Positions 13,860 to 37,200 of a DNA stretch of 51,736 nt are shown here, in pieces. A program made the translations under genes and the position numbers. The stretch covers positions 1 to 51,736 of the IMG/VR virus record IMGVR_UViG_3300025864_000003. One strand, written 5' to 3'. Position 1 is the stretch's first letter. Every line of letters starts with the position of its first letter. The notes under the pieces were generated by a model. The model was given only the letters and a program-made list of their open reading frames with translations, ran no database searches and had not been told where the DNA came from. The DNA comes from a virus (taxonomy: Duplodnaviria; Caudoviricetes).

Positions 13860-16800
13860 TTAGTAGTTATACCAGTCTAGAAGTCTGCCGCCGACGTTAG
13901 AACTGCCGCCGAAGTATTCCTTTATGTCGTTTTTGAAGCGCGGGTTCACCGAGGACATTTGTTTGATAGCGGAGTTCAGATCACCGGACAACTGTCCGCC
14001 CAACTTGGTGCCTACACTGTTACCCTTTGCCTCATACCAGTCGCTGTAGCTATTCGTTAGTTGCTTTCGGTAGTCGTGAGCCGTCTCAAGGATTCGGTGC
14101 CACATCCTCACTCTACCAATCTCCAACGCTCGCTGTTCCTCGGGTTGCGCCGTCCCCTTAGCCGAGAATTTCTCCCACGCAGACTCAATAGCATCTGAGT
14201 TCGGAGACTTGCTGTTGATTTCGCGGTCTCTCACCTTCACATACCCCAACCAGGCCGTATGCGCCTCGCGTGCACGAGGTCCAGTTCCTATGGTGGTGAG
14301 GACTGGCTCCGAAAAGTGACTTATGTGCTCCAGTCTGTCATCAAGCCCCCCGATGAGGGCCTTGCCGCCCTTCAGTCCGCCGAGTAACTTCTTCTGTAGG
14401 GCGTAGTAGGCGTTGTGACCGTCCTTGTATTCCTGGGAGGGCGACTTGGCCTTGTGCCAGTTTTCGTAGGCTACCCTTAGTTGCTCCTGGGCCATATTTA
14501 TCTTGGGGTCAGCCGGTTTGCCAGTGACGAGCTGCAACTGATCCGATGTTATGAAGTACCACTGGTCAGAGGCGAGGGCTATGGTTGCCTTCAAGATGCC
14601 CTGCTTCTGTTCGGCCCTCGTGGCAGCAATGTTCTGACTTTCGGGGGTCTCCGAGATAAGCCTGTTGCCAAGATTCGGGTCCGCCATCATGTTCTTCAGT
14701 TGGAAGGCGCGACTCAAATCTTCATCGGAAACGGTGAATGGCGTAAGACGTACTTCTCCCTCGGCCGTGGCGGCTTGCTGGATGAAGTTGATGTCATACT
14801 CGTTATAGTCCAGGCCCCTGGACCTTATGATGTCGTTCCATAGCCCCCACCCGAGTCGCCTGCCAGTGTCCGGGTCCACCCCTCCGGGGTGCTCGAAACG
14901 ATATAGAAGCTGAGACTCGCTAAACCCCGTCTCCCTGCCCACCTGCTTGGCAATGGCCTTCGCCCAGTCCTTACGTTGTTGTATCAATTTCTCAGTACCC
15001 TTTTGAAGGGCCTCCAGCTTGATATCCCCCATGTAGTAAACGGAAGAGGTTCTATCTTTACCCGCCACGTAGTGTCCGCCGTAAATATCGGTGATTACGT
15101 TGTGGTAGGCCGCGATTCGTGCGGCATCGGTCAAACGTTCCCCACCATTGTTGAAGAATGACTCCTGCCAGTCCACGGGATTCATTTCCATGTTGGCGTT
15201 GTCGTAGTTGTATGGTGACTGCCACCACTTCAGCATGTTGAAGTTGGCTGGGTCCTTCTTCATGGCTAACTTTTCTTCGTTGCTGGCGTCGTGATAACGT
15301 AGGTCCTTGTCGAAGTTGGGATACTTCTCGCGGACAAGGTTCATCCCGGCGAAGTCTTTTGCCTTCAAGGCGGACTGGTACTCAAAGTACGCACTCTGCA
15401 TTTCTCTCGGTTCCTTGGGCGAGTACATGACGCCGAAGGGAGTGGGGGAGAAGCTCTTGGTCATCTCGTTATACAGGGCCTCTGGGCGAAGATGCTTTTC
15501 TCCCCATCCACCCTTCCCACCAGTCAGCGCCCATAGAGCCTTCACTCCGAGGGGTGCATTATCAAGATTTACACCCGTAGAACCGCTCCCCTCGGGTCCG
15601 TACTTTGTCCAGGCCATGATGGCGTTAGCATGCGCGGTTTCGAGCTTGTTTACATCTCCGAAGATGGACTCCGAAATATCTCCCAGGGTGGTGTCACCGG
15701 TGAGCCCGTATGTCAACCTTGCTATTCTTTGGAATGGAGACATGGTGTTGCCCAGCCCCTTCAGGAGGGGGAAATTCGCATAGTCCTTGGGGTCCTCTCC
15801 CAGGGCGCTTATGCCCGCCCGAATACCTATCAGTGGTATTAGGCCGGCGCTCGGGGACTGCGCAGCCACCTGATCCCAGAATCCCGCCCCAGTCTCTGAG
15901 TCCGGTGCCCAGAAGGGGATTTGCGGTGTGATGAACTGGCTGTCGCCGCTGGTGAATCCGAATGGGTCCCGAAGAAACTCGGGATAATTCTTCTGGAACG
16001 CGGCAAGGGCCAGGGGGTGCTTTGCAACGGCCCCCGCCCAGTACACGAAGAACTGTCGATAGGCGCTGATGAAGGGAACCATGTTTCTTGACATATCCTC
16101 GAACATGGTGGTGGAGTTGCTGTAGGCGGTCTGGTGTGCATACTTCACGGCGGTCTCGCCTGCTATTCGATGCATCTCCTCCGGACTGGTTTCAATCTCG
16201 CCAGCAGCCCTAGCCAACTTGTTCCGCTCGATGAGTTTGTTGCGCACCGTGTAGTATTTATCGTTGAACAGCTGTCGTTTTGTCCACTCCCCAATGCCCT
16301 GCATCAACTTGCTACTACCGTATTTGAAGACGTAGTGGTAGGGGTTGAGGGCAGAGGCTCCATACAGGGGATTCCTCAGTCCAATCTTTACACCCTCCGC
16401 AAGGCCGTTTCTTATGGGGGCGTTTACTGGATATAGGAACGGCTTCCCCGGGCCACTTCCCCACGCCTCTAGTTCCTGCACGGTGGGGGCTGCCCCCTCC
16501 ATTGCCTTCCTCATCGGCTCGTGATCGGAAAAGAGTTTCGCCCTGTCATACCAGTTGTTACACCATTCCTCAAACTCGGGGGTGTTGTAAGTACCGGGAC
16601 CCGCGCCCTTGCCCTTGATACTACGATAGGTATCATTGAGGAAGTTCCTCATATCGGTCGCGTCCTGCGTGTATTCCATCTTTCCTGTTTTGGGATTTTT
16701 TACGCGCTCATCGCGTATGCGACGAATGAAGCCCTTCAGGTCCTTGGGGTTTGTGGGGAACTTTCCCTTCCCACCGAAGTTCTTGCTGGCGACGAGTCTC

Positions 16801-19800
16801 TTGACAATAGGCTCTCTAGCCCAGGAGCTAAGATCATCACGAAGGGCTGCATAATATCCGGGCTCAGTCGGAGTGAGTGCGTGCCACTCTCCCGAGGTGT
16901 TCGCCATATCCCAGTCTCGTGCCATCCCGTCTCTCAGCTTCAACTCGAACTCAGTGAAGTCGGTGCCGTCTAATTTTACTTCCTTGACCCCCCTGCGGAG
17001 TCCGGTCTTTCTGAGAATCCAGTCGGGCTTGCCAGCTGGCAGGAACATGGGTTCGCCGTCAAGGTCTTTGCGCAGTTTGCGCACGGTCCACATTCTGCTG
17101 ACTACACCCTCCGGAACAAATCGCGCTATCTCATCCCCGATGTTGACGCGAATGGGGAAGGCTAGCGAGGCCATAACGGTTTCCTTGAACATGCGCATTA
17201 CCGGCTCAGCCACCAATTGATCCGCAAGCATGAAGTCTCTTGGAGCCTTTCCGCTCATATACCATCCGGCGATGCGGGGGTCATACTGGTGATAGATGTG
17301 GGTGCGGATTTGACCCTGCTTGAACGGCTGTGCCGTGCGCATATCACTAAGTTCGTTTACAGCCGTGTCATATTTGATTTCCTCACTGGGAGAAAGTCGC
17401 TTCTTCTGACCAAGTTCTTGTACGATCTTGGCAGCCTCGGTCCTTCTCGTTACCTTGGCGGTGGCCTCGAATACCGCGTCACTCATCTTGCCGATGTCGG
17501 CGGGAGATGCGCCAAGTTCGGTGGACAACTTGGCCATATCAATCCGAGCCTGAGCAATGGCGGGGTTCGTGATCAGTTGGTCGCGCTGGCGATTGAGTTG
17601 GGCCAGCTCGCGTCTCTTGTTGGTGAGGGCGGCTCCGCCCTTCTTCCCCTTGCCGGTTTTTACTCCGGTGTGTGCATATCTAGTCTGGTCGCGACCCGTA
17701 AGTTCATACTTCTTTGTCTTTGGATTGTACTTTCTAGTCTCCGTATATCCGGTGCCATCACTGCGTAGGTGGGTGCGCTGGTTGTCTTTCCACGCACTAG
17801 TTTTTCCCGTTGTGGGTGCGGGTTCCCCAGGCTTCACCACGTGCTTCGCATAATAACCCTGCTCAAGTTGGTCCACCTCGTCTCCCAGCTGTGTCTCCTT
17901 ACCCGCCCACAACTCGTCCCACTTGCGCAACGCGCCCTGTGACACCTCATCCAGACTGCGCTCCAGATCGGAAGGAAGAACAAGGGAACCCTCCACCAAG
18001 GTTCTTTCTCCGGTCTTCTTGTCGATGGCATACTTGGGGAGGTAAGAGTGACCCAGTATCTCATCCACATATCGTTGTCCACGAGTCCAGAGAATATGCC
18101 GATTGTACGCCTTGAAGTCATCCAGTTTGTCGCCCAGATTGTTTTCAAAGGTTTTCCACATCTCATCGACTATCTTCTGCTTGCCTCCGGGGTGAGCCTC
18201 GTACACCCTGCGGGAGAAGTCCTGCAATTGCCGAAGAGCTGCCTTTCTCCCCGCCCTGGTGGTGGCACCCATGCGAATAGCTTTTCCCACCTGGAATGTG
18301 TCCTCGGCAGCAGTGGCAATGTCGGACGTTTTGCCATACATGGTCATGGTGTTGAAGATACGAGCCCAACCCAGTTGGCCGAAGCCCCTCTCCCCGAGGG
18401 AGTAGCGAAGTTGCTTTATCATAGCACTCTTGCCACCGTCAATTTCGACGCCCTTGATCTCCAGCTTCCTCAGCAGACCCTCCACCTCGATGTGAGACTT
18501 GCTGGCCGCAACCTGCTTCACCAAGTCCTGTATCTCGGGAATGTCCTCGGGAGCCTTCAGTAACCGATTGACTACGAAGGGGTCCTCAATCTTGGCAAAG
18601 AGCTCTGCGTTGGTGCGAAGGAAAGCGGGTGGGGCATATGTATGTACTTCTCGTTTCTTGACGAGGCCCTTGACTGTGCGCGTGACGGACTCTACGAGTC
18701 CACCGCCCAAACTGTACATCGTGGCACTTTCTCCGTCGATTCCGTGGGGAAGAAATGGGCTGGTGGGGTCGGAGATGTGCTTGTGTAGTACCTCGTCGGC
18801 GCGCGCAACATATGAGTTGTATGCATCGAAATCGCCCTCAACCCTACCCACATCGAGGGGTTTTCTCTCCATCCAGTCGTTGCCCACCTCCTTGAATCCG
18901 CGCTTGGCGTACACGTCCTTCAGTGCATCTTTCGCCATCTTCTCGGCCCCAAAGGGAACAGCCTCAAGCCGCAGGGTAATACCCGAGTTGTCTGCGGCGG
19001 ACACCAGATCGTCAATGACGCTCCCGCCGAATCCCTGTCCACGCGACTCCAGTGGAGTCTCGAGATTCTTCACTACGACCTTGGGTCCCTCGGCCTTCAT
19101 GGCCAGACGAACGTCATTCTCAAGATAACCTGCGGTGAGAGGCTTGCCGGTTTCATTCGGCACGTTGCGGAACGAGAGGAAATCGTCCATAAAGTTCTCT
19201 GGTGTATCTGGGGGAGACGGTTTGCGTGGTGGCGCATCCCTCGGATCAAGCGCCTTGAACTCGTCCCTATCCAGTGGTTGCACGCGAGGCTTTCCATTTA
19301 CATCTTTCGCGACCTTGACCAGAGCTGGGTCTCCCGGTGCCTCGGGGTGACTGAGGTGGAGACGTCCCCTCCCAGCATCCACGGCCCCGGGGAAGAACTC
19401 TCGTGGTTTGCCCGTTGCGTCTTCCCTGAGTTTGGCAACACGCTTGCCCCAGTTTGCTGCTGGTTTCTTTTTCCCGACCGCCTTCTCCAGGTCGTCAATG
19501 AGTCCTGAGTCGATCTTTCCGCCCCCGGCCACAACCTTTTCAAGATGTAAAAGATGGTTCAAGCTATCGGGCATAATGGTCCGAACGTTCATTGAGATGG
19601 TTTCATTGGCAATCTTATTGCGTTCCCGGAGAGCGTCGGCGTGCTCCTTGCTATCCTTGCCGTAGATTTTCTCGGCCATATCAACTTTCTCTCCGGCCTT
19701 CTGCTCTAGGGCGGTGCGTTCCCTCACGAGTGCCGATGTCTGCTCCAACGTTCTCACCTCGGGGGGGGTCGGCGTTGGTCTATGGAGTTTCCCGGCAGCA

Positions 19801-21692
19801 TCTTCGGTGGCCTTAGCCTCCCGGATGGCCTTGCCCGCATTTCCACCAGCGGGCATGCCAGCGTTTTCAAAGGGAACACCACTAGGATGGCTCAAATCGA
19901 GGAATCCCGCTTCGCTTCCGGCCAACTTCCCGAACGCCGCCCAATCAATTATGTAAGCACTGCCCATGCGAAAACCCGCGCGAGTCGCAACAAATGCGCC
20001 ATGTGCACCAGCCTGTGCCCCGGACACAACCAGCGGGTCAAGTGTACTCCCAACATACACCTGTAACGCAAGGTTCGCTATATCGGACGCATCCTTGAGA
20101 TAGGCGGGCATCTTCCCGGTCTCGCCGTAAGAAGCGTTCTCAAAGGCGATGTGGAACAGGTTGTCGCCACCAGCCTCCTCGCGTGCCTTCTTCCACGTGT
20201 CGGCATCCATCAGGGCCTGCCAGTTGAAGGGCTGGTCCTTTTCCATCTTCGCCTTACCACCAGATGCCAGTCCCCTTGCCTTCACCTCGCTCTGCCAGTA
20301 TCCCTGGGTCGCATAGTCCAGCGCCACTTGCGCAGTCGCTAAACCCTTGAGCGCCTCGTTGAACGGTCCATAGATGTAGCCGCTGGCTTCGCCCACATCC
20401 TTACCCATTTCCTTCAGAACGGTTCCAACCCCCGGCACCTTGAGGACCTGCTTTGCGGGCCAGAGAAGTGTTCCGAAGGCTTTTCCGATAGACTCCATGG
20501 CGGTGTCCGTCTCCTCCTCGTACACCTCGCGTTGCTTTGCTGGAAGACGCTCTGCATCGAACTCCTTCACATATTGCGCGCGTCTCTCCGTCTCACTCAT
20601 GCCGATGGGACGAGAGAACTGCCACTCGTCGTAGGAGAAGGTTTTTACGGTATCGTCGTCTGCATATCGCATGGCCTCCAGGGTAGACTTCACGGTGTCA
20701 CTCTGCGCCCACTGGGTAGTATCCAGTCCGAGTCTGTGAGCTGCCCGCTCTACACGATCCTTATTGAAGGCAATATTGCGCACCGACGCCATAACGTCAT
20801 TGGCCTTCGCGGTTTGGGAATAGTCACCGTACACCTGATATGCCCACTGACCAGCAAAGACATACTTGTTCTGTATTTTCTCCCACTCCGGTTCCCACTC
20901 CGAAGAGTTGGGGTCGTACTTTATCTTCACCCCACGTTGTGCTAGTCTCTTGGCCATCTCTTTTTTGAACTTGACAATCTCCTCATCGGGGATGATGGGG
21001 CCTACGAAGTCTGAACCGGTAACACGCCATGGGTCCTTGGTGTCACGCTGATACTGTTTTGCGAGCTGTACGCTCTCTAGAGTTGGTTGCGCGGCAAAGG
21101 GACTTGCCAGCGTACCCCTATTTCCCATCGCCCTTGAACCGGCTGGTGCGGGTGCAGAGGCAACACCACCACCCTTCACACCGTCAAGTTCTACCACACC
21201 CTTTCTCTCTCCGTCCGTCAGGTCGCCCCTATCCATGTAGAACATGTCTCCCGCGCGCAGTGCGGGTTTCTCTTCATCGGTAGCATCCGACGTGGGTGAC
21301 CATAACTCATCGTAGAGACCCTTATTCTCCTCGGGGTCTTGAGGCATGGTCCCCTTGTCCAGAAGGAGCTGGAGGGTCGTTATCGGATCGGGAAAAGCTT
21401 TCTGTTGAGAGTAGTATGGGTTGATGATGTTCGCTAGGGACTGTTCCTGGTCCGATTCGGCCGGGGGCTTCGCTATAGAGAGAAGTTCGTTATAGGTCTT
21501 CGGGGGTGCCTTCGGGGCAGCCGTTTTCTGCGGGATGGAGGGAGCGGGGGTGGGATGAGACTTTGCTGGGGTTAGCGTGGGCGCAGCGGGATTACGACTA
21601 CCGCTGGGGAGTCCCTGTTCGCCAACCGGCTTCTTTTTCTTCTTCTTCTTGGGAGGTCTATATGGCTGGTCTTTGGGACCAATAATCGCCAT
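13860..21692 (-). CDS. Giant (2610 aa) putative internal virion / DNA-ejection protein with embedded GNAT-like domain
   Basis: Size and position between portal and scaffold; RGQGFG...YAKRGF acetyltransferase-like motifs. Confidence 0.7.
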   Translation of the reverse strand: MAIIGPKDQPYRPPKKKKKKKPVGEQGLPSGSRNPAAPTLTPAKSHPTPAPSIPQKTAAPKAPPKTYNELLSIAKPPAESDQEQSLANIINPYYSQQKAFPDPITTLQLLLDKGTMPQDPEENKGLYDELWSPTSDATDEEKPALRAGDMFYMDRGDLTDGERKGVVELDGVKGGGVASAPAPAGSRAMGNRGTLASPFAAQPTLESVQLAKQYQRDTKDPWRVTGSDFVGPIIPDEEIVKFKKEMAKRLAQRGVKIKYDPNSSEWEPEWEKIQNKYVFAGQWAYQVYGDYSQTAKANDVMASVRNIAFNKDRVERAAHRLGLDTTQWAQSDTVKSTLEAMRYADDDTVKTFSYDEWQFSRPIGMSETERRAQYVKEFDAERLPAKQREVYEEETDTAMESIGKAFGTLLWPAKQVLKVPGVGTVLKEMGKDVGEASGYIYGPFNEALKGLATAQVALDYATQGYWQSEVKARGLASGGKAKMEKDQPFNWQALMDADTWKKAREEAGGDNLFHIAFENASYGETGKMPAYLKDASDIANLALQVYVGSTLDPLVVSGAQAGAHGAFVATRAGFRMGSAYIIDWAAFGKLAGSEAGFLDLSHPSGVPFENAGMPAGGNAGKAIREAKATEDAAGKLHRPTPTPPEVRTLEQTSALVRERTALEQKAGEKVDMAEKIYGKDSKEHADALRERNKIANETISMNVRTIMPDSLNHLLHLEKVVAGGGKIDSGLIDDLEKAVGKKKPAANWGKRVAKLREDATGKPREFFPGAVDAGRGRLHLSHPEAPGDPALVKVAKDVNGKPRVQPLDRDEFKALDPRDAPPRKPSPPDTPENFMDDFLSFRNVPNETGKPLTAGYLENDVRLAMKAEGPKVVVKNLETPLESRGQGFGGSVIDDLVSAADNSGITLRLEAVPFGAEKMAKDALKDVYAKRGFKEVGNDWMERKPLDVGRVEGDFDAYNSYVARADEVLHKHISDPTSPFLPHGIDGESATMYSLGGGLVESVTRTVKGLVKKREVHTYAPPAFLRTNAELFAKIEDPFVVNRLLKAPEDIPEIQDLVKQVAASKSHIEVEGLLRKLEIKGVEIDGGKSAMIKQLRYSLGERGFGQLGWARIFNTMTMYGKTSDIATAAEDTFQVGKAIRMGATTRAGRKAALRQLQDFSRRVYEAHPGGKQKIVDEMWKTFENNLGDKLDDFKAYNRHILWTRGQRYVDEILGHSYLPKYAIDKKTGERTLVEGSLVLPSDLERSLDEVSQGALRKWDELWAGKETQLGDEVDQLEQGYYAKHVVKPGEPAPTTGKTSAWKDNQRTHLRSDGTGYTETRKYNPKTKKYELTGRDQTRYAHTGVKTGKGKKGGAALTNKRRELAQLNRQRDQLITNPAIAQARIDMAKLSTELGASPADIGKMSDAVFEATAKVTRRTEAAKIVQELGQKKRLSPSEEIKYDTAVNELSDMRTAQPFKQGQIRTHIYHQYDPRIAGWYMSGKAPRDFMLADQLVAEPVMRMFKETVMASLAFPIRVNIGDEIARFVPEGVVSRMWTVRKLRKDLDGEPMFLPAGKPDWILRKTGLRRGVKEVKLDGTDFTEFELKLRDGMARDWDMANTSGEWHALTPTEPGYYAALRDDLSSWAREPIVKRLVASKNFGGKGKFPTNPKDLKGFIRRIRDERVKNPKTGKMEYTQDATDMRNFLNDTYRSIKGKGAGPGTYNTPEFEEWCNNWYDRAKLFSDHEPMRKAMEGAAPTVQELEAWGSGPGKPFLYPVNAPIRNGLAEGVKIGLRNPLYGASALNPYHYVFKYGSSKLMQGIGEWTKRQLFNDKYYTVRNKLIERNKLARAAGEIETSPEEMHRIAGETAVKYAHQTAYSNSTTMFEDMSRNMVPFISAYRQFFVYWAGAVAKHPLALAAFQKNYPEFLRDPFGFTSGDSQFITPQIPFWAPDSETGAGFWDQVAAQSPSAGLIPLIGIRAGISALGEDPKDYANFPLLKGLGNTMSPFQRIARLTYGLTGDTTLGDISESIFGDVNKLETAHANAIMAWTKYGPEGSGSTGVNLDNAPLGVKALWALTGGKGGWGEKHLRPEALYNEMTKSFSPTPFGVMYSPKEPREMQSAYFEYQSALKAKDFAGMNLVREKYPNFDKDLRYHDASNEEKLAMKKDPANFNMLKWWQSPYNYDNANMEMNPVDWQESFFNNGGERLTDAARIAAYHNVITDIYGGHYVAGKDRTSSVYYMGDIKLEALQKGTEKLIQQRKDWAKAIAKQVGRETGFSESQLLYRFEHPGGVDPDTGRRLGWGLWNDIIRSRGLDYNEYDINFIQQAATAEGEVRLTPFTVSDEDLSRAFQLKNMMADPNLGNRLISETPESQNIAATRAEQKQGILKATIALASDQWYFITSDQLQLVTGKPADPKINMAQEQLRVAYENWHKAKSPSQEYKDGHNAYYALQKKLLGGLKGGKALIGGLDDRLEHISHFSEPVLTTIGTGPRAREAHTAWLGYVKVRDREINSKSPNSDAIESAWEKFSAKGTAQPEEQRALEIGRVRMWHRILETAHDYRKQLTNSYSDWYEAKGNSVGTKLGGQLSGDLNSAIKQMSSVNPRFKNDIKEYFGGSSNVGGRLLDWYNY

Positions 21693-28302: not shown

Positions 28303-28667
28303 GACGCGTCGTCTACATTGCCGGTAAAATCTCCGATCCGGATTGCATCCGCGTTGCCGAGAACCTGCAACGTTTCACCCAGATGGAACACGACCTGTTG
28401 TGTGCCGGATACGCTCCGATAAACCCAGGAGCCGATTGGGGGGCGGTGTCTCTTGGCGGAGTCGCATACGAGGACTTGATGGCCCGTGATAGGGCACTGT
28501 TGACGAAGTGCGATGTTGTGTACTTCATGATTGGTTGGCGGGAGTCCCTGGGAGCCCTGCGCGAACATAGGTGGGCCAAACGCTGTGGAATCCCCTGCGT
28601 GGAGGAGAAGGTTGGCGACGGGGAGTATGGGTTCCGTAGTTTGCTGTTCGCACTGGAACCGGCATGA
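28299..28667 (+). CDS. DUF4406-like nucleoside 2-deoxyribosyltransferase-fold protein
   Basis: VYIAGKIS...GYAPINP...LLTKCDVVYFMIGWRESLGALREH.WA...GIP. Confidence 0.8.
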   Translation: MRRVVYIAGKISDPDCIRVAENLQRFTQMEHDLLCAGYAPINPGADWGAVSLGGVAYEDLMARDRALLTKCDVVYFMIGWRESLGALREHRWAKRCGIPCVEEKVGDGEYGFRSLLFALEPA

Positions 28668-29402: not shown

Positions 29403-30173
29403 ATGGCAGACGCAAAGACACGAGAGCTGACCACCGCAGAAATAGATGCTAGTGTTGCCAAGGCCAACGCCGAGGCTGTCGCGGCACTTGCTGAGGCGGA
29501 GAAGCATAATTCGGAGTCGAAGAAGTACATTGCCGATGCGCGCAAACTATCGGCCGAAGCGATGAGAGCCGAGTGCTTTGCCAAGACCGAGGCCATTGAC
29601 CTTGAGCGTAATCAGGAACTACGCAGACGTGAGTTGTCTCAGGACACATTCCACCACGTTTACCAGTTCATGGGCAAGGTGTCTGAATCGTCAGTCGCCA
29701 CGGCGGTACGTGAGCTTAGTTACTGGAACCGCGACTGTCCTGGGTGCGACATCGAGATTGTCTTGAACAGTCCGGGCGGCGAGGTGATTGCGGGTATGGC
29801 GATGTTCGACTATCTCCAGTTCCTGCGCAGCAAGGGTCACGACATCACGACGGTCTGCATCGGTTATGCGGCCAGCATGGCCGGGATATTGCTACAGGCC
29901 GGTGATACCCGTGTGATGGGGCGCGAGTCCTATGTCCTAATCCATGAAGTCAGCTTCGGTGCTGGCGGCAAGATTGGAGAGGTCGAGGACGAGGTTGCCT
30001 TTGTTCGCAAGATTCAGGAACGCGTTCTCAACATCTTCAGCAAGAGGTCCCTGGAGGCTCAACCCAAGACGGGTCTCACCGTCAAGCAGTTTGCAAATCG
30101 CTGGCGCCGTAAGGACTGGTGGGTCGACTCAGACGAGGCCATGAAACTCGGCATCGTGGACATGGTAAGGTAA
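29403..30173 (+). CDS. clpP: ClpP-family serine protease with N-terminal coiled-coil extension
   Basis: LNSPGG, GYAASMA (Ser), LIHE (His), DWW...EAMKLGIVD (Asp). Confidence 0.9.
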   Translation: MADAKTRELTTAEIDASVAKANAEAVAALAEAEKHNSESKKYIADARKLSAEAMRAECFAKTEAIDLERNQELRRRELSQDTFHHVYQFMGKVSESSVATAVRELSYWNRDCPGCDIEIVLNSPGGEVIAGMAMFDYLQFLRSKGHDITTVCIGYAASMAGILLQAGDTRVMGRESYVLIHEVSFGAGGKIGEVEDEVAFVRKIQERVLNIFSKRSLEAQPKTGLTVKQFANRWRRKDWWVDSDEAMKLGIVDMVR

Positions 30174-30364
30174 AGAAGACTACCGGACAGTAGCGGCTTA
30201 TGCCGTGGAGCCGGTGCCGGGCACTCGCGATGAAGGACGCTTCAGAGACGGCGACCGTCCATTGGTAAGACCCGATTGGCACATGTGAGACGGAAAAAGG
30301 CGCGAGGGCGACAGGCGGCCTGGTAATAGGGGGGTCGCCTGGCCAATTCCGATAGAGGAGGGAC

Positions 30365-30547
30365 ATGAAGAAGTTGCTACCACCGTTCCACAGGGTGATG
30401 GAGAATGAGGGAGAGTGTGACCTTGCCAACGATAGGATAGCTTTCTTGGAAATCCGTCCGACCGTTGCTATCATTAATCCCAGCTCCGCCATGGAGGTTA
30501 CGGGCTGGGACGCGGACAATCGTCTTCTGACGATTACCTGTACTTAG
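30365..30547 (+). CDS. Hypothetical protein
   Basis: SD GAGGAGG; 60 aa. Confidence 0.6.
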   Translation: MKKLLPPFHRVMENEGECDLANDRIAFLEIRPTVAIINPSSAMEVTGWDADNRLLTITCT

Positions 30548-30557
30548 TTTGTGGGTG

Positions 30558-30563
30558 TATAAT
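30558..30563 (+). promoter_or_regulatory. -10 element (TATAAT) upstream of the tmRNA-like RNA
   Basis: Perfect TATAAT 8 nt before the RNA 5' G; no clear -35. Confidence 0.6.
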
Positions 30564-30571
30564 GAGAGAAA

Positions 30572-30651
30572 GGGGGCGGACTGGCTTCGACAGCGGATAA
30601 AGCCAAAGAGCAATCTGCTGGACACGCGTTCGATTCGCGTCGCCTCCACCA
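30572..30651 (+). ncRNA. Minimal tmRNA-like RNA (tRNA-like domain only, Ala identity)
   Basis: GGGGGCG/CGCCTCC-ACCA acceptor with G3:U70 and A73; stemless D-loop GACTGGCTTCGA; CAGCGGAT/ATCTGCTG stem; GAC linker; T-arm ACGCG-TTCGATT-CGCGT. Confidence 0.85.
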
Positions 30652-30674
30652 TCATCCCACAGAAGGAGTTACAC

Positions 30675-30806
30675 ATGGCCACGTTCAAGAAGGACCCCAA
30701 GAAACCCGCAGTCAAGAAGGGCGTTCCAAATGCAAAGCCCATCCCGATGGTGAAGAAGAAAATTTACAAGACCAAAGTCGGTCCTGTGAAGAAGACCAAG
30801 AAATAG
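30675..30806 (+). CDS. Lys-rich basic micro-protein (43 aa)
   Basis: SD AAGGAG; MATFKKDPKKPAVKK...KKTKK. Confidence 0.7.
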   Translation: MATFKKDPKKPAVKKGVPNAKPIPMVKKKIYKTKVGPVKKTKK

Positions 30807-30815
30807 GAGGACTAC

Positions 30816-30995
30816 ATGTTAGAACAGAAGACTACGGCATTCCAGCCAGCGAAGAAGACCCCCGTGGCCCCCGTTCCGGAGGTGGAGGCTCCACAGCCAG
30901 AAGAGGCTCATTTAGTCACTTGTCTCTACTGTGGTGCACAGTCTTCCGTAGATAGGGAGACGTGTTTCGCCTGTTCTTGTGTGTTGAAGAGGTAA
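30816..30995 (+). CDS. Small Zn-ribbon protein (59 aa)
   Basis: SD AGGAGG; CLYCG...CFAC; read manually. Confidence 0.7.
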   Translation: MLEQKTTAFQPAKKTPVAPVPEVEAPQPEEAHLVTCLYCGAQSSVDRETCFACSCVLKR

Positions 30996-31128
30996 ACGCT
31001 GTAAGGCGTTACGGGCGGTTCCGAGTGTGACTCGGGGGGCCGCCGGGGCGGTCTCGGTTCAAGCCCACATCAGCTTGTGGAGATGTGGACGCCGGGGTCG
31101 CCTCTTTCCATTATCAAAGGAGCACATC

Positions 31129-33241: not shown

Positions 33242-33318
33242 GTGACGGTAGCATAATTGGATAATGCCTTAGGATGTGGCCCTAAGCGATGTGGGTCCGA
33301 GCCCCACCCGTCACTCCA
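33242..33318 (+). tRNA. tRNA-His(GUG), non-canonical
   Basis: Acceptor GTGACGG/CCGTCAC, D-arm GCAT/ATGC, anticodon arm TTAGG-ATGTGGC-CCTAA, T-arm GTGGG-TCCGAGC-CCCAC, encoded CCA. Confidence 0.9.
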
Positions 33319-34916: not shown

Positions 34917-34930
34917 GGAGGTTGCGGACA

Positions 34931-36367
34931 ATGATCGAGTGTCCATCCATAGAGGTGCTGGAGTCCATGGGTTTTGATTTCAACACTACATTTGGCGTGG
35001 AGTTCGAGTTCTACTGTGTAGACGAAGACCGTGACGGTGTGGCTGACCATCTCGACAGCACCACCGGCATCAGCACACGTAGTGAACACTACAACCACAT
35101 TGACAATGACCACTACTGGAAGATTGTCTCGGACGCATCCCTGGATAGTTACGAAGATGACGGGGGATACGAGTGCGAGAATTGCGAAGTAAATCCTACG
35201 TGCGACGAGGACTGTGCGTACAACTGCACCCCAAGTTATGATTGCAGCGAGTGCGAGGTGAACACATACGACGGGCCAGAAGGCGAAGGTCCAGAGTGCG
35301 GGGAATGTGCAGAGCTAAACGACTTCCCCTCGTATGAGTGCGGGGATTGCGAGCAAGAGCGATACTGTGACGAGGACTGCTCATACCACTGTAGCCGCAG
35401 CAATTCGGGCAAGGGGGGCATGGAGCTAGTGTCCCCAATCCTGCAAGGCCACAAGGGGCTGAGTCAGGTACACGCCATGTTGGAGGCGCTGGAGGGCCTT
35501 GATTGCAGCGTAGATGAGAGCTGCGGGATGCACCTGCATCTTGACGGCGAGTCTCTAACGCATAACGACATGAAGAACCTTGCGTCCCTATATGTCAAGT
35601 ATGAGGCCACCATCGACAGCATCATGCCTGCTTCCCGTAGAAACAACAGCAATTGTAAATCCATGTGCAACGCAAGGTGGGGCGCCAGGGACTACGGCTG
35701 CGAGGCTCCACGCTTGAAGAAGATTGCGGCCAAGTTCGATGAAATGGAATCCGCCAAGGTTATGAGCGAGCTTCTGGGCATATGGAGAGATCGCTTCATC
35801 AAGCTGAACCTGGAGGCTATGCACGACCACGGAACTGTTGAGTTTCGTCAGCATGGCGGTACTCTGAGTTTCGAGAAGACCATGCACTGGGTTACCCTGT
35901 GCATGAACATGAGGCGCAGAGCTGTATGCGTATCGAAGGTGAGTCTGTCTGCCGAGAGCTACCCGTCTCTGGAGTGTATGATGGACGAGTTGGGGTCCAG
36001 CGAAGAGAGTAGGGCCTTCTGGCTGAAGAGGCGCGACCAATTCGCGGAAGAGGTATCCGCAGACCGTGCTCGTGTTGAGGTGGATGAGGCTAGGCGTGCC
36101 GTACATTACGAACAGCGGGAACACGACGAGCGTGTTGCTGCACAAGAGGCTTGGCGCTGGAACGCGGAGAGAAACGAACGAGGTGCGCAGGCAAGTTGGC
36201 TATTGTGGGACTATCCGATCCCTCTGCCGGATTCGGCATACGAATTACTCGCACGAGACAGAGCCTTCTGGTATTCCCGGGGTGCCGCACAGGCGGCAAG
36301 GGCGGAGAATGAGATACGGCCAGAGCTTCTGTTCGGCGACTATTATATGGCAATGCACGTAGCATAA
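34931..36367 (+). CDS. Amidoligase (COOH-NH2 ligase type 2 / Amidoligase_2) with Cys-rich insert
   Basis: TFGVEFEF, WKIVSDASL, MELVSPIL, SCGMHLH, KLNL, GTVEFRQHGGT. Confidence 0.9.
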   Translation: MIECPSIEVLESMGFDFNTTFGVEFEFYCVDEDRDGVADHLDSTTGISTRSEHYNHIDNDHYWKIVSDASLDSYEDDGGYECENCEVNPTCDEDCAYNCTPSYDCSECEVNTYDGPEGEGPECGECAELNDFPSYECGDCEQERYCDEDCSYHCSRSNSGKGGMELVSPILQGHKGLSQVHAMLEALEGLDCSVDESCGMHLHLDGESLTHNDMKNLASLYVKYEATIDSIMPASRRNNSNCKSMCNARWGARDYGCEAPRLKKIAAKFDEMESAKVMSELLGIWRDRFIKLNLEAMHDHGTVEFRQHGGTLSFEKTMHWVTLCMNMRRRAVCVSKVSLSAESYPSLECMMDELGSSEESRAFWLKRRDQFAEEVSADRARVEVDEARRAVHYEQREHDERVAAQEAWRWNAERNERGAQASWLLWDYPIPLPDSAYELLARDRAFWYSRGAAQAARAENEIRPELLFGDYYMAMHVA

Positions 36368-36378
36368 TGGGAGGCTAT

Positions 36379-37200
36379 ATGACGAAGGACTACAAGAGGT
36401 TGTGGAAGTGGGTTGACCCCGAGGCATACAGACAGAAGATGGAGGACAAATACGAACATCACCCGCGCCTTTACATAGCATATGGAAGCAACCTGAACAT
36501 ACCGCAGATGCAGGCACGTTGCTACACTGCGAAGCAAGTAAGGGTCGTGAATCTTCTCGACTATGAGCTGGTGTTCACAGACGTGCTTACAGTCGAGCCG
36601 TTACTAGGCAGCAAGGTGCCGTGTGGACTGTGGCGCGTGACACCGGAGGACATTGACGCCCTAGACACATACGAGGGCTATCCCCACCTTTACGACAAGG
36701 TATATGTCACCATAAACATTGATGGCGTGGACGAACTGGCGTTCCTGTACGTGTTGGACATCGAATACGAGCTGTCGGCACCATACAGCGGTTACCTTCG
36801 CACCTGCCTTGACGGGTACAGGCAGTGGGGCCTTGACGAGAATGTGCTTAGAATGGCCGAGGCGGCTGCCGTGGACGCCGAGAGGGATGTAGAGAAAACA
36901 CCCATGGAGTGCTCCTCCTGTAACGTAGTTCTACCACGTCCGCTGATGACCAAGACTCGCTTATTTGGATGGATGTGCCTGGACTGTCAGGAAGTCATGT
37001 TCTACGGCCAAGACGGGAATGTGGCATCATACGGACACAACACCATAGGGACACCGAGAACATCGCTGTTGTATGATGACCTGTCGCCTGATTGGGAGAC
37101 TTGCGACCCCAGCGAGCTGGACTGGAGTCCCGGAGGCGACTATGCATATGACGACATGGGGTCGAACAGACAAGCGGATTGTGGAGGAGGATGGAGCTGA
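36379..37200 (+). CDS. Gamma-glutamylcyclotransferase (AIG2/GGCT-like) with C-terminal Zn finger
   Basis: YIAYGSNLN..QM..RC, ALDTYEGYP.LY; CSSC...CLDC. Confidence 0.9.
   Translation: MTKDYKRLWKWVDPEAYRQKMEDKYEHHPRLYIAYGSNLNIPQMQARCYTAKQVRVVNLLDYELVFTDVLTVEPLLGSKVPCGLWRVTPEDIDALDTYEGYPHLYDKVYVTINIDGVDELAFLYVLDIEYELSAPYSGYLRTCLDGYRQWGLDENVLRMAEAAAVDAERDVEKTPMECSSCNVVLPRPLMTKTRLFGWMCLDCQEVMFYGQDGNVASYGHNTIGTPRTSLLYDDLSPDWETCDPSELDWSPGGDYAYDDMGSNRQADCGGGWS

What the first reader, a model, noticed from the sequence alone, without database searches (positions are those of the whole stretch)
30572..30651. An 80-nt 'tmRNA without a message': tRNA-like domain only, encoded by a phage
Seen: GGGGGCG-GACTGGCTTCGA-CAGCGGAT-(AAAGCCAAAGAGCA)-ATCTGCTG-GAC-ACGCG-TTCGATT-CGCGT-CGCCTCC-ACCA, with a TATAAT just upstream. 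Established: the G3:U70 pair plus A73 (AlaRS identity), a stemless D-loop ending GGnUUCGA, the short GAC linker and the T-arm are hallmarks of the tmRNA tRNA-like domain that binds SmpB. Here the whole pseudoknot ring and tag reading frame (normally >250 nt) are replaced by a 14-nt loop with no stop codon. I know of tag-less tmRNAs from some protist mitochondria; the phage tmRNAs I know of are full length. Inference: this could be an SmpB decoy that blocks host trans-translation, or an alanylated mini-RNA that enters stalled ribosomes and adds Ala without a template (ribosome rescue or Ala-tailing).
Basis: partly seen in the sequence, partly recalled or inferred. Interest (0 to 1): 0.93.

Follow-up and report, generated by a model that had tools for sequence, protein, structure and literature searches.

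The report
Phage mini-tmRNA lacking its message
This phage carries an 80-base gene for only the tRNA-like end of the bacterial ribosome-rescue RNA (tmRNA); one such phage gene was already described, but the same design turns up in well over a hundred other phage sequences.

Summary
Window 30572-30651 (+) matches Rfam tmRNA (RF00023) end to end at 68.2 bits (cut-off 47), with 306 interior model positions replaced by 12 nt. It has a 7-bp acceptor stem with G3:U70, A73 and CCA, a stemless D-loop, an 8-bp P2 stem capped by 14 nt, a GAC linker and a T arm.

It is not a new kind. Mycobacteriophage DS6A is listed as "TLD only" (PMC4131195, PMC11915505), and a similar RNA is reported there to inhibit tmRNA in E. 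coli. A model built from the window element finds the unannotated DS6A copy at 53.4 bits.

Beyond those papers, model-verified relatives occur in 122 IMG/VR loci. They also occur in 14 bacterial genome loci from several phyla.

- The stems covary strongly: 97.6% of cells paired against 68% when shuffled.
- G3:U70 is kept while neighbouring pairs change.
- ARAGORN misses them.
- The genome is complete and has no SmpB or tyrosine integrase.

Best reading: an alanine-chargeable, message-less tmRNA mimic that uses host SmpB and competes with host tmRNA. The function is inferred, not shown. Verdict: new member of a known kind, in an apparently undescribed large family.

The parts
30572..30651 (+). 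TLD-only mini-tmRNA gene (80 nt), CCA encoded
   Evidence: RF00023 68.2 bits, model 1-374 with interior deleted; own model R1 94.7 bits
30572..30578 (+). acceptor stem 5' strand; pairs with 30641-30647; G3 (30574) pairs with U70 (30645)
   Evidence: 7 of 7 pairs; in the family pairs 5:68, 6:67 and 7:66 covary and 3:70 is G:U in 38 of 38 (partly forced by the search pattern)
30579..30590 (+). stemless D-loop region with GG and TTCGA
   Evidence: G12, G13 and T15-A19 invariant in 36 sequences
30591..30598 (+). P2 stem 5' strand (8 bp with 30613-30620)
   Evidence: all 7 modelled P2 pairs show compensatory changes in the family
30599..30612 (+). 14-nt apical cap with an A-rich 5' side and a 2-bp GC/GC mini-hairpin; replaces pseudoknots and tag frame
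   Evidence: A28, A29, C32, C33, A35, A36, G37, G39 and A41 are conserved in 17-23 of 25 relatives with a 30-nt interior
30613..30620 (+). P2 stem 3' strand
30621..30623 (+). GAC linker
   Evidence: GAC in 29 of 36 family members
30624..30640 (+). T arm: 5-bp stem and 7-nt loop TTCGATT
   Evidence: T stem fully paired in 36 of 36 with many different sequences; 4 of 5 pairs show compensatory change
30641..30651 (+). acceptor 3' strand, discriminator A73 and CCA
30558..30563 (+). TATAAT -10 box, 8 nt upstream of G1; candidate promoter that would start the transcript at or next to the mature 5' end
   Evidence: read; flagged; not listed by the scanner because the -35 is poor; a relative in run X4 has a different upstream flank but TATAAT at the same 8-nt spacing (table 7)
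30675..30806 (+). first downstream ORF, 43 aa with 16 Lys, preceded by GAAGGAG; no + strand terminator in between, so probably co-transcribed with the RNA
   Evidence: no Pfam family

Best explanation
The element is a gene for a message-less tmRNA. It keeps the tRNA-like domain and a short P2 hairpin, like the element of mycobacteriophage DS6A. It is probably transcribed from the TATAAT 8 nt upstream together with the downstream small ORFs, and trimmed at its encoded CCA end. Inferred mechanism: host AlaRS charges it through G3:U70 and A73. It binds host SmpB, since the phage has none, and EF-Tu. It then competes with the host's full-length tmRNA for SmpB and for stalled ribosomes. Because it has no resume codon or tag frame, any nascent chain it accepts gets one alanine but no SsrA degradation tag. 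The net effect during infection would be suppression of host trans-translation tagging. Shown here: identity, architecture, family-wide covariation, conservation of the alanine identity pair, and phage origin. Inferred: expression, charging, SmpB binding, ribosome entry and the benefit to the phage.
For: Identity: RF00023 scores 68.2 bits end to end with the interior deleted. Model R1, built from this element and four relatives, finds DS6A's element at 53.4 bits, E 1.8e-10, with the same parts.

Real RNA under selection: in 38 distinct sequences 97.6% of cells pair, against 68.0% when shuffled (0 of 500 shuffles reach it) and about 50% when partners are slid. 14 of 19 pairs show compensatory changes, and the covariation score is 0.774 against 0.169. 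T stems pair in 36 of 36, and P2 averages 6.5 consecutive pairs against 1.8 with swapped partners. Neither stem was used for selection.

Chargeability under selection: a scan that left the acceptor stem free gave 34 distinct sequences with a 7-bp acceptor, and 33 have G3:U70. Three of them changed the adjacent 4:69 pair but kept G:U.

Acts with host factors: the complete 51.7-kb genome has no SmpB. No gene family recurs within 4 kb of 38 family members.

Additional to host tmRNA: 5 of 5 bacterial genomes carrying a mini also carry a 367-391 nt tmRNA.

Literature: passages in PMC4131195 and PMC11915505 say a DS6A-like molecule strongly inhibits tmRNA in E. coli. A passage in PMC3895274 reports peptidyl transfer to a TLD-only tmRNA in vitro. 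[quoted passage not shown]
Against: No expression, charging or binding data exist for this element. [quoted passage not shown] A73 and CCA were forced by every search pattern I used, so their conservation is untested. DS6A ends ACUA. The G3:U70 count includes loci first collected with a pattern that required CTCC. Restricted to loci first seen in the acceptor-free scan, it is 12 of 13. Why a phage would gain from blocking tagging is not established. The host is unknown.
Confidence: 0.6

Rival explanations
1. Pure SmpB sponge. The RNA only titrates host SmpB (and perhaps RNase R or other tmRNA partners) off the ribosome. Charging and ribosome entry are irrelevant.
For: PMC4131195 summarises Mao et al. 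[quoted passage not shown] The D-loop/T-loop elbow and the base of P2 are the most conserved parts.
Against: A sponge does not need G3:U70. Yet this weak pair, which a single U-to-C change would strengthen, is kept in 33 of 34 (12 of 13 in the conservative subset), while pairs 4:69 to 7:66 change. Every element collected also ends in ACCA, but all three productive search patterns required that ending, so this is not evidence.
Confidence: 0.17
2. Tag-less ribosome rescue is the selected function. The charged mini-RNA with host SmpB frees ribosomes stalled on broken mRNAs, for example after host or defence nucleases cut phage transcripts. It does so without marking the product for proteolysis, and release is completed by host factors. 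This is what is proposed for mitochondrial message-less tmRNAs.
For: The same structural evidence as the best explanation applies, including conserved alanine identity. PMC11915505 argues that CDS-less mitochondrial tmRNAs still help cells deal with incomplete mRNAs. The family often sits in phage tRNA arrays, that is, among translation-support genes. 9 of 35 loci have a same-strand tRNA gene within 200 nt.
Against: Without a stop codon the ribosome is left holding peptidyl-Ala-RNA with an empty channel, and no phage-encoded release or hydrolase partner recurs nearby. The only experiment cited in print reports inhibition, not rescue.
Confidence: 0.17
3. Non-functional remnant or integration-site fragment. 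It would be a piece of a host ssrA gene carried as attP, or a decayed full-length phage tmRNA.
For: Phages commonly carry 3' tmRNA fragments. Many such fragments appeared in my scans, with R1 scores of 40 bits or less and no 5' half.
Against: Both halves are present and pair perfectly. Covariation across more than 100 relatives shows selection. This genome has no tyrosine integrase. DS6A integrates at tRNA-Lys-CTT, not tmRNA (table in PMC10865867). Mini TLDs are not copies of the resident tmRNA in 5 genomes.
Confidence: 0.02
4. Another tRNA-like role. It could be a decoy substrate for host nucleases or defence systems that target tRNA or tmRNA, or a cis element at the 5' end of the downstream mRNA.
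For: In this phage the RNA heads an operon with no terminator before the next ORF. PMC11662646 shows that tRNA and tmRNA fragments can take part in anti-defence.
Against: Genomic contexts in the family are unrelated, and 58 of 64 lack a -10 box at that spacing, so a cis role is not general. Nothing links the family to a defence system.
Confidence: 0.04

Closest known systems
TLD-only tmRNA of Mycobacterium phage DS6A (tmRNA Website tmID 11587; Hudson, Lau and Williams 2014, PMC4131195; Mao et al. 2009, not read)
   Same: Phage-encoded, about 80 nt (83 in DS6A). It has an acceptor stem with G3:U70 and A73, a stemless D-loop, a short P2 stem with an A-rich bulge and small CC/GG hairpin, and a T arm. 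There are no pseudoknots and no tag frame. R1 score is 53.4 bits.
   Different: The phages are unrelated. This one has 55% G+C, direct terminal repeats, comes from a peat metagenome, and has no integrase. DS6A is a temperate mycobacteriophage with a tyrosine integrase. The DS6A gene ends ACUA rather than ACCA, has GTCGA instead of TTCGA in the D region, and a CAC linker.
Canonical bacterial tmRNA (SsrA, Rfam RF00023)
   Same: The tRNA-like domain aligns at both ends above the family's gathering score. The A-rich bulge above P2 sits roughly where the Rfam consensus has a 3-nt bulge between the lower and upper P2 helix.
   Different: It lacks about 300 nt: four pseudoknots, resume codon, tag reading frame and stop codon. 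So it cannot perform the mRNA half of trans-translation.
Message-less organellar tmRNAs (jakobid and oomycete mitochondria; two Mallomonadaceae plastid genes of about 65 bp, PMC11915505)
   Same: TLD only, no tag frame, presumed to work with SmpB encoded elsewhere.
   Different: Those are the organelle's only tmRNA, derived by reduction. Here the RNA is supplied by a virus on top of a host full-length tmRNA (5 of 5 genomes). I did not test sequence relatedness to the mitochondrial Rfam model separately.
Engineered TLD-only tmRNA fragments used in biochemistry and crystallography (described in PMC3895274 and PMC8363625)
   Same: The same parts are retained. Those constructs bind SmpB and EF-Tu, enter the A site and accept the peptide in vitro (passages read).
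   Different: They are laboratory constructs, whereas this is a natural gene family with its own conserved apical motif.
Full-length phage tmRNAs (for example mycobacteriophages Bxz1 and Wildcat, Bacillus phage G; two-piece forms in marine myophages, PMC9004378)
   Same: Phage-borne ssrA homologues, often near tRNA genes.
   Different: Those keep a tag frame and are found by ARAGORN. This class is missed by ARAGORN: 32 of 35 not called and 3 mis-called. ARAGORN-based phage surveys such as PMC9004378 would therefore not see it.

Membership tests
tmRNA (SsrA, Rfam RF00023) | Covariance-model score above the curated gathering score | tested here: met
   68.2 bits against 47, E 1.5e-24, model 1-374
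tmRNA (SsrA, Rfam RF00023) | tRNA-like domain: 7-bp acceptor with G3:U70, A73, CCA, stemless D-loop, T arm | tested here: met
tmRNA (SsrA, Rfam RF00023) | mRNA-like domain with resume codon, tag reading frame and in-frame stop | tested here: not met
   Only 14 nt cap P2 and none of their three frames has a stop. The single TAA lies at the stem boundary and is not conserved
tmRNA (SsrA, Rfam RF00023) | Pseudoknot ring (PK1-PK4) | tested here: not met
   306 model positions are replaced by 12 nt
tmRNA (SsrA, Rfam RF00023) | Alanylation by AlaRS and binding of SmpB and EF-Tu | not testable with these tools
   Only the identity elements can be read from the sequence. Complex prediction takes no RNA
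Phage TLD-only (CDS-less) tmRNA, DS6A type | Complete TLD plus a short P2 hairpin, about 65-90 nt, with no tag frame | tested here: met
   80 nt; family lengths are 66-90 nt
Phage TLD-only (CDS-less) tmRNA, DS6A type | Detectable homology to the DS6A element | tested here: met
   R1, built from the window and 4 relatives without DS6A, hits JN698994 28478-28560 at 53.4 bits, E 1.8e-10. The next hit in that genome scores 17.2 bits
Phage TLD-only (CDS-less) tmRNA, DS6A type | Encoded by a phage | tested here: met
   Complete virus record with terminal repeats; terminase large subunit and major head protein
Phage TLD-only (CDS-less) tmRNA, DS6A type | Inhibits host tmRNA function in vivo | not testable with these tools
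   Reported for a DS6A-like molecule in E. coli according to PMC4131195 and PMC11915505. The primary paper is not held
Canonical tRNA (tRNA-Ala) | Anticodon arm with a 7-nt loop, and a D stem | tested here: not met
   ARAGORN makes no call here. In Rfam's clan competition tmRNA is the match kept. Some relatives cap P2 with 3-5 nt
Phage attP fragment of host ssrA | Only the 3' part of the gene, next to an integrase | tested here: not met
   The 5' half is present and paired. No PF00589 match in the complete genome. Serine integrases were not searched
Mitochondrial tmRNA (Rfam mt-tmRNA model) | Match to that model better than to RF00023 | tested here: inconclusive
   The permissive scan listed no such match, but one lower-scoring overlapping match from the same clan was hidden by the tool

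The most novel reading that the evidence does not exclude
Message-less, alanine-accepting mini-tmRNAs may be a large, overlooked class of phage translation-control RNAs rather than a DS6A oddity. Present in more than 100 unrelated phages of many bacterial phyla, they would enter stalled ribosomes with host SmpB and add a single alanine. This would uncouple ribosome rescue from SsrA-directed proteolysis, for instance to keep phage proteins alive or to neutralise defences that cut mRNA. The conserved apical motif would be a new functional contact.
Probability: 0.3. Interest if true: 0.8.

Novelty: new member of a known kind. Interest (0 to 1): 0.55.

Why it matters
Trans-translation is the main ribosome-rescue and quality-control path of bacteria, and it is a drug target. 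A natural inhibitor or bypass in the form of an 80-nt RNA has been noted once, in DS6A. This window shows a second, unrelated phage with the same device. Following it up shows that the device is common, structurally constrained and invisible to the usual tRNA/tmRNA finder.

That turns an anecdote into a testable question: what do phages gain by supplying the tRNA half of tmRNA without the message? The family alignment gives ready-made mutants to test, namely G3:U70, the apical motif and P2 length. It also gives a covariance model for annotation.

Tried and rejected
- Pattern design slips: the scan had one N too many before the T loop. It returned 44 stretches that were nearly all coding-sequence chance hits, and only L008 was a mini. 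The scan returned 0 because my pattern could not match even the window (shown). Neither is a biological negative.
- BLAST against 50,697 named phage records found nothing useful. The 401-nt and 20-kb queries gave no match. The 80-nt query at E up to 10 gave 18 records, none covering 80% of the query. How many cultured phages carry a mini-tmRNA therefore remains unknown.
- Expression: no RNA holder was listed for the stretch. This says nothing either way.
- Conserved partner gene: none was found within 4 kb in 38 loci. The ClpP-like gene 400 nt upstream in this phage (PF00574) does not recur near other minis, so I dropped a ClpP link.
- Deletion derivative of the host's own tmRNA: not supported, since mini TLDs differ from the resident tmRNA TLD in 5 genomes.
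- A promoter directly upstream as a family rule: rejected, with only 6 of 64 having TANNNT 5-10 nt upstream.
- Wrong-frame reference: the PHROG and Pfam queries for 'window:30677-30806' were out of frame by my error, so those two blanks are void. The correct ORF 30675-30806 has no Pfam match and was not re-run against PHROGs.
- Papers: Mao et al. 2009 is not held. A title search failed on term length. Supplementary tables, such as Table S1 of PMC9004378 listing phage tmRNAs, could not be seen and might include short forms.
- Print searches for the family found only the DS6A mentions: 'mini-tmRNA / minimal tmRNA / tmRNA-like / TLD-only / tagless tmRNA / truncated tmRNA', 'phage-encoded tmRNA' and variants, tmRNA+DS6A, and tmRNA+phage+tRNA-like domain+SmpB.

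Full report
**1. What is there**

Rfam's tmRNA model RF00023 matches from model position 1 to 374 at 68.2 bits (gathering score 47, E 1.5e-24). The alignment keeps both ends of the tRNA-like domain (TLD) and replaces 306 interior positions by 12 nt (same score). ARAGORN does not call it, and finds only a tRNA-His at 33242-33318.

My parse gives these parts:
- acceptor stem of 7 bp, with G3:U70
- 12 unpaired nt ending TTCGA
- P2 stem of 8 bp with a 14-nt cap
- linker GAC
- T stem of 5 bp and loop TTCGATT
- A73 and CCA

On its own the fold is only modestly better than shuffles (z -2.3), so the case rests on comparison with relatives. A perfect TATAAT lies at 30558-30563, 8 nt before G1. It lacks a good -35, and the scanner did not list it. 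No + strand terminator follows. A GAAGGAG and a 43-aa ORF with 16 lysines begin 24 nt after the CCA.

**2. The genome**

The window is a complete virus record of 51,736 bp with direct terminal repeats and about 55% G+C. It encodes a terminase large subunit and a major head protein on the minus strand. The plus strand carries an arm of small genes, a ClpP-family protein, a phosphoesterase, an amidoligase and a gamma-glutamyl cyclotransferase. It has no SmpB and no tyrosine integrase. Few proteins match PHROGs, and no named phage is similar at the DNA level. It is not DS6A.

**3. Not an assembly artefact**

Contigs of two runs, which may be the source sample, span 30200-31000 with no difference or indel. 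A third run covers 30396-30606 identically. A soil-metagenome run of another study has a contig over 30572-30644 with 3 differences. Its upstream flank is different but again has TATAAT 8 nt before G1.

**4. It is one of many**

- I built covariance model R1 from the window element and four ungapped relatives.
- R1 scores 48-94 bits in 122 IMG/VR loci: 34, 9 more, and 79 of 81 loci.
- There is a clear gap to 3' tmRNA fragments, which score 40 bits or less.
- A script count gives 117 viral loci with 86 distinct sequences of 66-90 nt for the strictest pattern.
- In 185,579 species genomes the same pattern found 57 stretches. 14 of them score at least 51.6 bits.
- Those 14 come from Bacillota, Bacillales, Butyrivibrio, Gemmatimonadota, Acidimicrobiaceae, Hydrogenophaga, a gammaproteobacterium, Prochlorococcus, Nostoc (two), another cyanobacterium and Aggregatilineaceae.
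- Five of five such genomes also hold a normal 367-391 nt tmRNA. Their minis pass RF00023's cut-off at 48.6-70.3 bits.
- The mini TLDs are not copies of the resident tmRNA's TLD.

**5. Selection on structure**

The T and P2 stems were not used to select sequences. Even so, T stems pair in 36 of 36, and P2 shows 6.5 consecutive pairs on average against 1.8 with swapped partners.

On the model-guided alignment of 38 distinct sequences:
- 97.6% of cells pair, against 68.0% in shuffles (0 of 500 reach it) and about 50% when partners are slid.
- 14 of 19 pairs carry compensatory changes.
- The covariation score is 0.774 against 0.169.

That alignment is fitted to the model, which favours pairing. 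The anchor-based count is free of this bias.

**6. The alanine identity pair**

Most scans forced CTCC, so I ran one that left the acceptor free.
- Of 34 distinct sequences with a perfect 7-bp acceptor, 33 have G3:U70.
- Counting only loci first seen in that scan, a subset biased against CTCC, the figure is 12 of 13.
- Three sequences changed pair 4:69 but kept G:U.
- The one exception does not begin GGG and was not checked with the model.
- A73 and CCA were forced by all patterns and so are untested. DS6A ends ACUA.

**7. The cap is not random**

- 28 of 38 members have an A-rich 5' bulge, a 2-4 bp hairpin (usually CC/GG) and a short A/C 3' side. Five have simple 3-5 nt loops.
- In the 25 sequences whose interior is 30 nt like the window's, positions A28, A29, C32, C33, A35, A36, G37, G39 and A41 are kept in 17-23 of 25. 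The P2 stem positions vary.
- The Rfam tmRNA consensus has a 3-nt bulge after the lower P2 helix. The mini's bulge may be the same junction. This is an inference, not a tested homology.

**8. Context in the family**

- No protein family recurs within 4 kb in 38 loci. The largest cluster covers 4 loci.
- 9 of 35 loci have a same-strand tRNA gene within 200 nt.
- Only 6 of 64 have a -10-like box 5-10 nt upstream.

Most are therefore probably processed like tRNAs, and the window's own promoter is a local feature.

**9. What is known**

Hudson, Lau and Williams 2014 (PMC4131195; passages and Table 2 read) list 'Mycobacterium phage DS6A (TLD only)'. [quoted passage not shown] 2009. The 2025 tmRNA database paper (PMC11915505; passages read) repeats this. 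It names DS6A as the phage case, beside mitochondrial and two plastid CDS-less forms.

I located the DS6A element with R1 at JN698994 28478-28560, between gp33 and gp34, unannotated in the record. DS6A integrates at tRNA-Lys-CTT (table in PMC10865867), so its element is not an attP.

TLD-only constructs accept the peptide in vitro and were crystallised with SmpB and EF-Tu on the ribosome (passages in PMC3895274 and PMC8363625). A survey of phage tmRNAs with ARAGORN (PMC9004378, passages read) reports only one- and two-piece forms. ARAGORN missed 32 of 35 minis and mis-called 3. My four searches found no paper describing a family of such phage RNAs. Subscription journals and supplements were not searchable.

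**10. Mechanism**

- Shown: identity, architecture, selection, phage origin, absence of a phage SmpB.
- Inferred: host AlaRS charges the RNA. Host SmpB and EF-Tu deliver it to ribosomes with an empty A site. It takes the nascent chain and offers no message, so it competes with host tmRNA and suppresses tagging.
- Rivals: a pure SmpB sponge is favoured by the 'whether or not chargeable' remark and disfavoured by G3:U70 conservation. Selected tag-less rescue has the same entry steps but a different benefit.
- Very unlikely: a remnant or attP fragment.

**11. Verdict**

The element is a new member of a known kind, not a new kind. The added value is that the kind is a large, structurally conserved and poorly annotated phage RNA family.

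Noticed in passing
window 29403-30173 (+): A ClpP-family protein (PF00574, 97.9 bits; also PHROG 'head maturation protease') lies on the early-gene strand 400 nt upstream of the mini-tmRNA, far from the capsid gene. It does not recur near other minis.
   Followed up: partly
window 30675-30806 (+): A 43-aa ORF with 16 lysines and a strong ribosome-binding site lies directly after the RNA's CCA end. It has no Pfam match. Its possible role as an RNA- or ribosome-binding peptide is untested.
   Followed up: partly
window 34922-37200 (+): An adjacent amidoligase (PHROG 2443) and gamma-glutamyl cyclotransferase (PHROG 2520) form a gene pair.
   Followed up: no
window 13860-21692 (-): A 2610-aa ORF in the structural arm has no PHROG match at E 1e-5. 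Several other large structural-arm proteins are also unmatched.
   Followed up: no
window 33242-33318 (+): A tRNA-His (GTG) gene lies 2.6 kb downstream of the mini-tmRNA on the same strand.
   Followed up: no
L164 (JN698994) 28478-28560 (+): The DS6A TLD-only element lies in the gap between gp33 and gp34 and is not annotated in the GenBank record. The same genome encodes an RtcB-like RNA ligase (gp76).
   Followed up: partly
L056 2976-3318; L149 5905-6228; L148 1991-2081: ARAGORN extends two minis into long 'tmRNAs' with implausible tag peptides and calls one a tRNA-Glu. These look like annotation artefacts that could hide minis in databases.
   Followed up: partly
L065, L154, L195, L297 (about 30 nt upstream of the mini): A GC-rich hairpin followed by CCCACCCT(T/A)C directly precedes G1. 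The leader is complementary to the 5' acceptor strand and may be a shared processing or regulatory feature of a subgroup.
   Followed up: no
e.g. L052, L092, L093, L095, L098, L140: Many viral contigs carry only the 3' part of a tmRNA gene (T arm, acceptor 3' strand, CCA) without a matching 5' strand. R1 scores 31.2-34.8 bits in the five of these loci for which a score was obtained. They look like attP-type fragments.
   Followed up: partly
L178 and L193 (two contigs of one Bacillota MAG): One MAG holds two similar mini-tmRNA copies on different contigs, each followed at once by a tRNA gene.
   Followed up: no
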